From positions 1-64,000 of the forward strand of contig CAVPOC010000002.1 in assembly GCA_963706955.1 (NCBI GenBank): a stretch of DNA of 64,000 bases. The letters are read 5' to 3'. The notes under the pieces were generated by a model. It saw only the letters and a program-made list of their open reading frames with translations. It was not told the DNA's origin and searched no databases. Source of the DNA: an uncultured Verrucomicrobiae bacterium. GTDB taxonomy: Bacteria; Verrucomicrobiota; Verrucomicrobiia; Chthoniobacterales; Terrimicrobiaceae. Numbering within the stretch: the stretch's first letter is position 1; each line of letters opens with the position of its first letter. Of the stretch, positions 25,761 to 28,022 are shown one piece after another. The translations under genes and the position numbers were made by a program.

Positions 25761-26919
25761 ATGAAGTTCCAGAGGTCTGCACCTGGTGTGCTCATCGTCT
25801 CGGTCGTGGTGGTCGTTACCGCGATCGCCGTGCTCTCGAATCGGTTGTTCAGCGGGCTGACCTCGGCGGTCGAACAGGACCAGTTCGAGCTGATACGTGC
25901 CCTCTGGAGCTACAACCTCACGGCGGCCGAAAACCGCGCCCTGGAACGGGCGGAGCTGATAGCGGCTCTGCCCGCGGTCCGCGAGGCTTTCGCCGCCCGG
26001 GACCGGGAAGCTCTGCTGGCCCAGTGCGCCGAGATGTTCAAGCGGCAGAAGGAGCGCTACGGCGTCGATCGGGCCCAGTTCCACTTCCCGCCGGCGGTCT
26101 CGTTCTTGCGGCTGCACGCGCCCGAGCAGTATGGCGACCACCAGGACCAGTTCCGGCCGATGGTCGTCGCGGTCAATCGCGATCTGTTCTCGCGCAAAGA
26201 GTCGGCCATTGCCGGAACGGGGCCGGCCATCTTCGGGGTGACGCCCGTGATGGATGCCAGCGGCCAGCATATCGGCAGCTTCGAGCTGGGAATGAGTTTC
26301 GGCCCTCTGCTCCACGCGTTGAAAGCGGCCTATCGCCTTGAGATGGCGTTGTTCGTCGAAGAGCAGCCACTGCGGCAGTTAATGTTTGCCGAGGGCCTCG
26401 ATCCCGATGTCCTGACCGAGCAGAACCGCAGGGGCAAGTACACCAAGGTCCACTCGACGAACTGGGCCCTGATGAAAGAGCTCGTTAGCGAGGGCGATCT
26501 CAGTGGGCCTACGGAGGCCCAGTACGTCCGCTCGGCACAGGATGTGCCGTACGGCGTGGTGTTGTTGACGCTGTTCAACCACGCGGGCAATCCCATCGGC
26601 AAGGTCGCCATGGCGCGGGAGTTCAGCAGCTCGAGGGCGGCAGCGGGCCGCTCGTTGGTCTGGCAGGGGCTTCTGGCGCTGACAGGCATCGTCGTCTTGG
26701 CGGGAGTCATCCTCATCGTGGTGCGGGGACTGCTGCTGCGGCCCTTGGAAATGCTAAGCCGGCATTTTGTCAATCTCGCAGCGGGGCGGCGCGACCAACC
26801 GATTCCGGAGACTGAGAAACCTCTGCGACGAGATGAAGGCTCTAGCCCAGGCTCACGAGCAGCTTAGGACCAAGTCGCAGATCTCGGACCTCAAGACCGA
26901 CAAAGAGGTGTCTCCATGA
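25761..26919 (+). CDS. Membrane sensor: TM-dCache-TM-HAMP with no output domain (one extra base near 26818)
   Basis: QFH.P.A.SFLRLH.P..YGD....FRP.V..VN double-Cache signature; two TM helices; the HAMP second helix DEMKALAQAHEQL is in the +1 frame, which ends at TGA 26919 overlapping the next ATG. Confidence 0.82.
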
Positions 26920-28022
26920 AGAGCCTTTTTCTTCTCGGTCTCGTGCTCTCGTCCGCCTTGGCATTGCCAGGGCGCGCCGAGCTACAGGAAGCGCCGACGG
27001 AGGCGCCGCCGAGCGTTCTCAGCTCGCTGCCTTTGGGTAAGGGCCTGCCGGTCGTCGTTCTGACGGGCCTGCGCTATGTGGAGGTAGATTCGATCGACGA
27101 GACGGAAGCCGCCTACACGGCAACGGTGGATCTGCGCCTGCGGTGGCAGGACCTTCGGCTGCAATACCCTCCGGAATCTGCGCCCCAGGGCTTCTTGGAG
27201 TTCCGAGACGAGGCCGCCGCGGCGAAGATCGCCGAGATCTGGACCCCGGTCGTCTCTTTGCAGAATCTCTCTGGGGAGCCCTCGCAACAAATGCGCGCTC
27301 TCCGGATCTTTCCGGATGGACGGGTCGAGATGATGGTGCGCACGACAGCCACATTCGAAACCCCTTTCGAGGTAGAGCGGTTTCCTTTTGACCGCCAACG
27401 CTTGCAGGTCGAGGTGGTCTCCAGGCGCGAGAGCGTGGAGCGGCTATCGCTAGAATTCGAGCAGGACGACCTGGACTTCAGCCAGCCCCCGGATTCGAAT
27501 GAGCTCCGGGACTGGCTGCCGGGGATCGTCAGCCTCAAGCGGGATGTCGTGAACGGTTGGTACGGCGAGTACCTGTCTCGCGTGACCGTTTCCCTGGCTA
27601 TGCAACGGTGGGCCGGCGGCTCGGCCGCTCTGATTTTTATCCCGCTGCTGGCTTCACTGTCCATCCCCCTTTTGGCCATCTGGTTGAACAGGATGGAGGA
27701 AGGCGAGTTTCAGATCGAGGCCTTTGAGCAGGCCAATGTGATCGTCGGCGGACTCTTTGCGGTCATCGCTCTGAACTTCACCCTGAATGCGGAGTACGGC
27801 ATGCTCGGCTCCACTGACAACACCGTGCGTCGGCTGTTCACATTGAACTATTTGGCGCTGGGGCTAAGCCTGCTCATCAACCTGACGCTGTTCCGGTTCA
27901 ACTTGCCGATGCGCTGGTTTGGACGTTACGTGCAGGAACAGGTTTACTTGTTCTTGTCCTGGGCAGTGCCCTTGCTGGTTCTGGCCACCGCTCTCGCTTT
28001 CTTGCTGATTGCCATGGCCTGA
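26916..28022 (+). CDS. Prokaryotic pentameric ligand-gated ion channel (pLGIC, GLIC/ELIC-like)
   Basis: Signal peptide; W.D.RL, IWTP, DGRV and FPFD.Q (Pro-loop) motifs; four C-terminal TM helices. Confidence 0.9.
   Translation: MKSLFLLGLVLSSALALPGRAELQEAPTEAPPSVLSSLPLGKGLPVVVLTGLRYVEVDSIDETEAAYTATVDLRLRWQDLRLQYPPESAPQGFLEFRDEAAAAKIAEIWTPVVSLQNLSGEPSQQMRALRIFPDGRVEMMVRTTATFETPFEVERFPFDRQRLQVEVVSRRESVERLSLEFEQDDLDFSQPPDSNELRDWLPGIVSLKRDVVNGWYGEYLSRVTVSLAMQRWAGGSAALIFIPLLASLSIPLLAIWLNRMEEGEFQIEAFEQANVIVGGLFAVIALNFTLNAEYGMLGSTDNTVRRLFTLNYLALGLSLLINLTLFRFNLPMRWFGRYVQEQVYLFLSWAVPLLVLATALAFLLIAMA

What the first reader, a model, noticed from the sequence alone, without database searches (positions are those of the whole stretch)
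25761..28022. Output-less dCache-HAMP receptor translationally coupled to a pentameric ligand-gated channel
Seen: the upstream protein has TM-dCache-TM-HAMP. Removing one base near 26818 completes the HAMP (DEMKALAQAHEQL), and the protein then ends about 20 residues later at a TGA overlapping the pLGIC ATG (ATGA, 26916-26919). It therefore has no kinase, MCP or cyclase output, and there is no space for one. Established: Cache domains bind small ligands, some bacterial pLGICs carry fused Cache domains, and the Cache-containing alpha2delta protein is an auxiliary subunit of animal Cav channels. Inference: a two-gene system in which a separate membrane-anchored ligand sensor gates or modulates the channel as an auxiliary subunit. 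Manual M2 alignment to GLIC/ELIC puts Glu at -1' and Phe at 9', suggesting a cation channel.
Basis: partly seen in the sequence, partly recalled or inferred. Interest (0 to 1): 0.82.

Follow-up and report, generated by a model that had tools for sequence, protein, structure and literature searches.

The report
Bacterial ion channel with separate sensor
Two overlapping genes encode a membrane sensor with no signalling output of its own and a bacterial relative of neurotransmitter-gated ion channels; they stay side by side across distant bacteria, so the channel is probably the sensor's output, although binding between the two is not shown.

Summary
Observation confirmed. The frameshift is an assembly error: near-identical contigs from 3 of 3 DNA runs lack the extra base at 26816. 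The real sensor is a 385-aa TM-dCache_3-TM-HAMP protein whose stop overlaps the start (ATGA) of a pLGIC.

It is not a relic:
- 39 of 39 full-length representatives ≥200 bits have no output domain.
- dN/dS is 0.13.
- 45 of 52 metagenome loci have the channel directly downstream; the other 7 end at the contig edge.
- In 401 genomes, 9 of 9 channels ≥200 bits have the sensor upstream.
- The two trees share 13 of 13 strong splits.

No MCP, CheW or flagellin was found in the host (92.5% complete).

Best reading (0.55): the sensor is a bound subunit that gates or modulates a cation channel (E-1′, F9′, F16′). Binding, ligand and currents are inferred.

Tasneem et al. (PMC549065) noted such a pair in Rhodopseudomonas; 6 searches found no test. 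This scan found the pair before on another genome (e1-4246269).

The parts
25761..26919 (+). Output-less sensor gene, 385 aa once the assembly error is discounted: TM1-dCache_3-TM2-HAMP-short tail
25779..25835 (+). TM1 (aa 7-25), preceded by the clade-conserved N-terminal FRRSAP-type motif
   Evidence: hydropathy; conservation
25851..26624 (+). Periplasmic dCache_3 domain (about aa 31-288). The distal pocket keeps R117, H119, D126 and R132; the CitA-type RGK strand reads FGV
   Evidence: Pfam; AF2 pLDDT 93.4; Foldseek CitA TM-score (target-normalised) 0.79
26625..26729 (+). Conserved pre-TM2 helix (SRAAAGRSLVWQ) and TM2; candidate channel-contact surface
   Evidence: the role is inferred
26730..26871 (+). 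Degenerate HAMP domain (about aa 324-370), the least conserved part, still under purifying selection
   Evidence: (Af1503 HAMP E 2e-6)
26816..26818 (+). One surplus base in a short A run: assembly error
26916..26919 (+). ATGA overlap of sensor stop and channel start (translational-coupling geometry)
   Evidence: 42 of 54 loci have a 4-nt overlap and 50 of 54 have a start within -4..+4
26916..28022 (+). Pentameric ligand-gated ion channel subunit (Pro-loop type): signal-peptide-like N-terminus, beta-sandwich ECD with FPFD, four TM helices
27690..27719 (+). Acidic insertion (about 7 aa) in the cytoplasmic M1-M2 loop, specific to the main clade
   Evidence: short hairpin in the AF2 model
27726..27791 (+). 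Pore helix M2: E-1', N2', G6', G7', F9', L14', N15', F16' and T17' invariant in 81 of 81

Best explanation
A two-gene sensor-channel module. The sensor descends from a dCache_3 chemoreceptor or kinase that lost its output domain once, long ago, and has since been inherited only with one pLGIC clade. Translational coupling makes both proteins together. SHOWN: architecture, loss of output, purifying selection, reciprocal pairing, co-phylogeny. INFERRED: the sensor docks on the outside of the channel pentamer through its TM helices and membrane-proximal Cache subdomain. A small molecule binding the distal Cache pocket moves TM2 (the usual Cache-TM-HAMP movement), and this biases the doubly aromatic (F9', F16') gate, letting cations through (E-1' plus an acidic M1-M2 insertion). 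The output is ion flux or a change in membrane potential, not chemotaxis, in this host.
For: Pairing: 45 of 52 family loci in metagenomes, the other 7 cut by contig ends; 9 of 9 GTDB loci with upstream DNA. In the same 401 genomes of the order, 9 of 9 channels >=200 bits have the sensor upstream and 9 of 9 full sensors have the channel downstream. No full-length family sensor was found in the other 57 genomes with a pLGIC match. The pairing holds to 26-27% identity, 13 of 13 well-supported splits are shared and distances correlate at r=0.98 over 32 pairs. No third gene is conserved beyond close relatives. 122 output-less proteins and the fusion form one clade (support 1.0) that excludes 40 output-bearing relatives. 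dN/dS is 0.13 overall and 0.23 in HAMP. Relative to the ligand pocket, TM1, TM2 and the proximal subdomain diverge 1.1-1.6 times as fast in the channel-linked groups against 2.8-3.4 times in MCP/kinase relatives. One in-frame sensor-channel fusion exists (P0353). Precedent: an output-less Cache_heme-HAMP receptor binds and regulates its operon partner (10.64898/2026.05.25.727664). No MCP, CheW or flagellin match in the host.
Against: All evidence is comparative, and adjacent genes share history whether or not they bind. HAMP receptors are normally dimers (recalled), which fits a five-fold channel poorly. The HAMP is the least conserved part. The fusion is a single Logan sequence and one indel at an ATGA overlap could produce it; the other apparent fusion, P0393, is out of frame in its middle. 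G618 holds a channel of the wider clade (171 bits, cut by the contig end) and no sensor match (88% complete, 440 contigs). G760 and G682 hold only sensor fragments at contig ends and no channel match. The contrast may be inflated because the long relatives were selected by a profile they match mainly in the pocket. The channel keeps a conserved loop C (W215 in 76 of 81, G217 in 81 of 81), so it may have its own ligand site.
Confidence: 0.55

Rival explanations
1. Assembly or safety partner: the sensor-derived protein binds the channel mainly to help it fold, assemble or stay shut (like RIC-3/NACHO, or the trafficking role of alpha2delta; recalled), and ligand sensing is secondary.
For: Translational coupling and extra conservation of the TM and membrane-proximal regions fit any stable complex; the HAMP is degenerate.
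Against: The distal pocket residues are kept as in signalling relatives (R117, H119, D126, R132), and the pocket has changed in a clade-specific way (R158 to F in 93% of 85, E149 to A), which suggests selection on a ligand.
Confidence: 0.15
2. The HAMP signals to a third, unlinked cytoplasmic protein (as the CHH receptor does to a Ser/Thr kinase); the channel is co-expressed in the same response but not directly gated by the sensor.
For: HAMP is retained under purifying selection (dN/dS 0.23); precedent for an uncoupled HAMP binding a separate enzyme.
Against: No third gene travels with the pair, although its patchy distribution suggests it moves between lineages. In the precedent the partner is the adjacent gene, which here is the channel.
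Confidence: 0.13
3. Ligand hand-off (the proposal of Tasneem et al.): the Cache domain captures and concentrates a solute and presents it to the channel's own orthosteric site, with no signal passing through the membrane.
For: Proposed in PMC549065; the channel's loop C is conserved; other bacterial pLGICs have fused or operonic binding proteins.
Against: It does not explain the retention of two TM helices and a HAMP across the clade, or the conserved TM2-proximal motif. Buried Cache pockets are not known to hand ligands on (recalled).
Confidence: 0.12
4. Truncated chemoreceptor relic or chance neighbour; the frameshift marks decay.
For: The frameshift in this assembly; databases often label the family 'methyl-accepting chemotaxis protein'.
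Against: The frameshift is an assembly error; 39 of 39 best full-length representatives lack an output; dN/dS 0.13; reciprocal pairing and matching trees.
Confidence: 0.02

Closest known systems
Rhodopseudomonas pLGIC with an operonic stand-alone Cache gene (Tasneem et al., Genome Biol 6:R4, PMC549065; passages read)
   Same: Simple-architecture pLGIC next to a separate Cache gene, proposed to cooperate functionally. The hWxP motif the paper notes for that channel is present here (IWTP, aa 108-111).
   Different: The passages describe one genome and call it a stand-alone Cache domain; the word HAMP does not occur in the main text and no test is reported. The paper proposes chemotaxis, whereas this host shows no MCP, CheW or flagellin. 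I could not confirm that it is the same clade (supplements unreadable).
DeCLIC, sTeLIC, GLIC, ELIC (prokaryotic Pro-loop pLGICs)
   Same: Fold (Foldseek E about 1e-20, 20-22% identity), FPFD Pro-loop, four TM helices; the 16' Phe aligns with DeCLIC's.
   Different: Separate clade (support 0.999 among the sequences) with G6'/G7', F9' and an acidic M1-M2 insertion. DeCLIC's modulatory domains are fused and soluble, not a separate membrane protein. Scores are far below the NCBIfam LGIC_1 cut-off (73 vs 500).
Cache_heme-HAMP (CHH) receptor with operonic Ser/Thr kinase (bioRxiv 10.64898/2026.05.25.727664; abstract and passages read)
   Same: Cache-TM-HAMP receptor with no fused output, whose adjacent gene supplies the output in trans.
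   Different: Different Cache family (no CXXCH here), and the partner is a membrane ion channel rather than a soluble kinase.
dCache_3 chemoreceptors, kinases and cyclases (PF14827; PMC4822843 Table 1, passage read); CitA/DcuS sensors
   Same: dCache_3 fold and pocket motif; the distal subdomain resembles CitA.
   Different: No output domain; that table lists no ion-channel output for dCache_3; a proximal subdomain about 15 aa longer; CitA's RGK strand reads FGV in the main clade.
alpha2delta / CACHD1 auxiliary subunits of animal Cav channels (PMC9901441, abstract start only)
   Same: A separate Cache-containing protein associated with an ion channel.
   Different: Those carry dCache_1 domains (and VWA, recalled) and serve an unrelated channel family: an analogy, not orthology.

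Membership tests
Pentameric ligand-gated ion channels (Pro-loop) | Beta-sandwich ligand-binding domain (PF02931) | tested here: met
   65.6 bits, cut-off 26; Foldseek
Pentameric ligand-gated ion channels (Pro-loop) | Pro-loop (F/Y)PxD, pre-M1 Arg, M1 Pro | tested here: met
   F156-P157-F158-D159, R231 and P243 invariant in 81 of 81
Pentameric ligand-gated ion channels (Pro-loop) | Four TM helices with a short M3-M4 loop | tested here: met
   AF2 helices 233-257, 269-293, 303-327, 337-367
Pentameric ligand-gated ion channels (Pro-loop) | Pentameric assembly and gated ion flow | not testable with these tools
dCache_3 sensors | dCache_3 domain between two TM helices | tested here: met
   PF14827 75.8 bits; TMs 7-25 and 303-321; AF2
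dCache_3 sensors | Binds a small ligand | not testable with these tools
   Pocket residues conserved; no ligand identified
HAMP domain | Two-helix HAMP signature after TM2 | tested here: inconclusive
   21.3 bits, below cut-off 25, in P0003; the family profile hits Af1503 HAMP at E 2e-6; P0277 passes at 27.2 bits
Chemoreceptor (MCP) / histidine kinase / cyclase | Cytoplasmic output domain after HAMP | tested here: not met
   Median 21 aa from the conserved HAMP Glu to the C-terminus; 39 of 39 representatives >=200 bits lack one
alpha2delta-type auxiliary subunit | dCache_1 domains plus VWA | tested here: not met
   Pfam gives only dCache_3 and HAMP at E<=0.01
alpha2delta-type auxiliary subunit | Physical association that alters channel gating or trafficking | not testable with these tools
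   Needs co-purification and recordings
CHH receptor-kinase systems | CXXCH heme motif and adjacent Ser/Thr kinase gene | tested here: not met
   No CXXCH in P0001 or P0003; the conserved neighbour is the channel

The most novel reading that the evidence does not exclude
A receptor of the two-component/chemoreceptor type has been rewired so that its output is an ion channel. Ligand binding to a separately encoded dCache_3-TM-HAMP subunit opens a pLGIC whose own site is secondary, making this an obligate regulatory subunit for a prokaryotic pLGIC (none found in my searches). The same sensor clade serves both an E-1' branch and an R0' branch of the channel.
Probability: 0.4. Interest if true: 0.85.

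Novelty: new variant of a known kind. Interest (0 to 1): 0.62.

Why it matters
The natural stimuli and roles of most bacterial pLGICs are unknown (recalled), although they are the main structural models for nicotinic, GABA-A and glycine receptors. Here the genome context names a specific partner and a screenable ligand pocket, so the question of what opens this channel in the cell becomes testable. If the sensor gates the pore, it would link Cache-TM-HAMP signalling directly to ion flux, give a simple model for pLGIC auxiliary subunits, and explain why such a channel might look silent when expressed alone. Databases commonly mislabel the family as methyl-accepting chemotaxis proteins.

Tried and rejected
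- Complex prediction (2 channel copies aa 36-368 plus sensor aa 3-335, with alignments): no verdict, score 0.25 against a mark of 0.32, controls not folded. Not used as evidence either way. The job lacked the pentamer, the sensor dimer and the second HAMP helix.
- Tying the pair to Rhodopseudomonas: supplements of PMC549065 could not be read, and exact look-ups of 10 family proteins gave no such name. Those supplements bear on whether this is the same clade.
- Plasmid search with the channel: no match in 72,556 records.
- P0393 (752 aa, apparent fusion) rejected as a frameshift product. P0018, P0310 and P0340 likewise look out-of-frame or chimeric.
- RNA run X15 has three short contigs on the channel gene only: too little to show transcription or a joint transcript.
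- Promoter scan: 0 sites; terminator-like sites 5 against 2.9 +/- 1.7 in shuffles, so nothing concluded.
- PMC4795631 (Pro-loop evolution): six terms searched in the text, none found. PMC8915833: passages irrelevant.
- A search for CitA's citrate-binding residue numbers found nothing, so the role of the RGK residues is recalled.
- The searches bearing on prior description were (open-access PMC and bioRxiv only); most subscription papers are not covered.
- Horizontal transfer is suggested (GC 62% vs 57%, GC3 0.78-0.83 vs 0.55-0.70 in six neighbours, patchy distribution) but no donor was tested.

Full report
1. Observation. The window is contig C2:1-64000 of a 4.16-Mb, 92.5%-complete assembly. 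Its closest relatives are titled Terrimicrobiaceae or uncultured Verrucomicrobiae, and near-identical DNA lies in soil and rhizosphere runs. ORF 25761-26867 encodes TM-dCache_3-TM and the first half of a HAMP. The rest of the HAMP and a 17-residue tail lie in the next frame and stop at the TGA that overlaps the channel's ATG. The surplus base is an assembly error: it is missing in 9 of 9 GTDB relatives that cover the junction and in near-identical contigs of 3 of 3 DNA runs from three studies (one run may be the source of this DNA). An intact 385-aa protein of 97% identity exists. ORF 26916-28022 is a Pro-loop pLGIC by Pfam, PDB sequence search and fold. Both genes are single-copy in the genome.

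2. The sensor family has no output. Of the 120 best hits listed (of 344; only lengths 202-644 were searched), 113 are 365-395 aa and none has an MCP, kinase or cyclase Pfam domain. A search among longer proteins gave 32 hits; the best with a real output scores 161 bits at 30% identity. Among the best 150 representatives, those with full coverage end within 60 aa of the HAMP in 39 of 39 cases at >=200 bits, 14 of 16 at 175-200 bits and 14 of 54 below that. In a tree, 122 output-less proteins plus one fusion form a clade with support 1.0 that excludes all 40 output-bearing relatives (the set was chosen with a profile of the short forms). dN/dS across 10 close relatives is 0.13 for the gene and 0.23 for the HAMP. 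This is an old, maintained architecture, not decay.

3. The pairing is strict and reciprocal. A metagenome scan anchored on the sensor gave 55 loci. 45 have the channel immediately downstream, 7 stop at the contig end (one already shows an overlapping ORF with a signal-peptide-like start), and 3 are distant relatives (24-27%) with 295-aa tails and no channel (a few loci are near-duplicates). Of 54 loci with both genes, 42 overlap by 4 nt, 50 have a start within -4..+4, and 4 are damaged by indels. In one sample of 401 genomes of the order, 66 have a pLGIC match. The 9 scoring >=200 bits (including the window's genome) all have the sensor upstream, and all 9 full-length sensors have the channel downstream. 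None of 20 fetched loci of other pLGIC clades (of more that matched; one, L090, rests on the unpublished genome G549) and none of 9 from a phylum sample has a sensor within the 1.5-kb flanks. Loose ends: G618 has a wider-clade channel cut by a contig end and no sensor match; G760 and G682 have sensor fragments at contig ends and no channel match. For 32 non-redundant intact pairs (of 38 that passed filters, from 70 loci) spanning 26-99% identity, the two trees share all 13 splits with support >=0.95 and distances correlate at r=0.98. This shows joint inheritance without partner swapping, not binding. Source names attached to family members span Verrucomicrobiota, Alphaproteobacteria (Mesorhizobium, Reyranella), Myxococcota, Blastocatellia and Abditibacteriaceae; each name is for one partner, and adjacency in those named organisms was not seen directly. 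No third gene is conserved beyond close relatives.

4. Channel anatomy. Aligned to GLIC M2 (prime numbers recalled), the main clade has E-1', N2', G6', G7', F9', N15', F16' and T17' invariant in 81 of 81 sequences, and an acidic insertion of about 7 residues in the cytoplasmic M1-M2 loop that other pLGICs examined lack. This predicts a cation channel with a tight double aromatic gate (inference). The position matching the loop B aromatic is Arg in 52 of 81, as in GLIC, so a classical aromatic amine box is unlikely (site assignment recalled). Loop C is conserved. A second branch (L085 with its own sensor; fusion P0353) lacks the insertion and has Arg at 0', so the partnership spans channels whose selectivity may differ.

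5. Sensor anatomy. The AF2 model (pLDDT 93.4) is a double Cache on a long stalk, with a CitA-like distal subdomain. Pocket residues shared with MCP/kinase relatives are kept, but the Arg that aligns with CitA's RGK strand is Phe in 93% of 85 main-clade proteins, against Arg in 40 of 40 output-bearing relatives and 69% of the second branch. The ligand has probably shifted away from a polycarboxylate (the role of RGK is recalled). Relative to the pocket, TM1, TM2 and the proximal subdomain are much more conserved in the channel-linked groups (1.1-1.6 times the pocket's divergence) than in output-bearing relatives (2.8-3.4 times), and the proximal subdomain is about 15 aa longer. This is what a new protein interface would leave, though selection of the long relatives by their pocket match may exaggerate it. 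One in-frame fusion of both halves exists, 40-44% identical to the split pair L085. It is a single sequence and could come from one indel at the overlap, so it is weak support.

6. Mechanism. Most likely (0.55) the sensor is a bound subunit: ligand binds the distal pocket, TM2 moves, and contact in or near the membrane biases the gate. Rivals are an assembly or closing partner (0.15), signalling to an unlinked third protein (0.13), ligand hand-off (0.12) and relic (0.02). The dimer-versus-pentamer symmetry mismatch is unexplained. Chemotaxis, proposed for these channels in PMC549065, is unlikely in this host, where no MCP, CheW or flagellin was found (genome incomplete).

7. What is known. PMC549065 (passages read) reports one bacterium, Rhodopseudomonas, with a stand-alone Cache gene in a predicted operon with its pLGIC, and suggests functional cooperation. 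It is probably this system, but I could not confirm it because the supplements were unreadable. A 2026 preprint shows that an output-less Cache_heme-HAMP receptor binds and regulates its operon-encoded kinase (abstract and passages). Six literature searches (open-access only) found no description of the family or any experiment on it.

8. Verdict. A real, conserved and, as far as these searches reach, untested two-gene system. Each part belongs to a known family and the pairing was glimpsed once in print. What this work adds is its breadth, strictness, co-inheritance and the membrane-anchored, output-less nature of the partner. New variant of a known kind; interest 0.62, rising to about 0.85 if the sensor is shown to gate the pore.

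Noticed in passing
window 24534-25358 (-): Divergently oriented BacNav-family channel gene (PF00520) with filter TLEGWVT. The calcium-selective prokaryotic channel CavMr has TLEGWVD, needs Gly4 and Val6 but not Asp7 (PMC7041947, passages), so this may be a native calcium channel. It lies near the pair in only 8 of 62 loci, all close relatives.
   Followed up: partly
proteins P0253, P0269, P0287: Family members with extra sensor modules in front (4HB_MCP_1 once or twice, or a second dCache_3) and still no output domain: possible multi-input versions. Single sequences; their neighbours were not seen.
   Followed up: partly
protein P0353; L085 (G628:C24): Second branch of the system: the channel lacks the M1-M2 insertion and has Arg at 0', the sensor keeps the pocket Arg and a canonical DEIG HAMP motif; includes one in-frame fusion.
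   Followed up: partly
window 26823-26825 region (Cys355 of the 385-aa protein): A cysteine just before the second HAMP helix is kept in 66 of 84 main-clade sensors; role unknown.
   Followed up: no
window 33624-34091 (+): A small two-TM channel gene (PF07885); with the BacNav-type gene and the pLGIC, three channel genes lie within 10 kb.
   Followed up: no
window 20448-21208, 21307-21960, 23518-24402: Neighbouring LysR, SnoaL-like and SDR genes also look split or run on out of frame, so the assembly probably has further indel errors; relatives L001, L006 and L012 also show a break late in the SDR match.
   Followed up: no
cluster of P0003: The 90% cluster mixes 385-aa sensors with 366-aa channel proteins, probably joined through frameshifted read-through sequences; its member count (82) is not a count of sensors.
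   Followed up: partly
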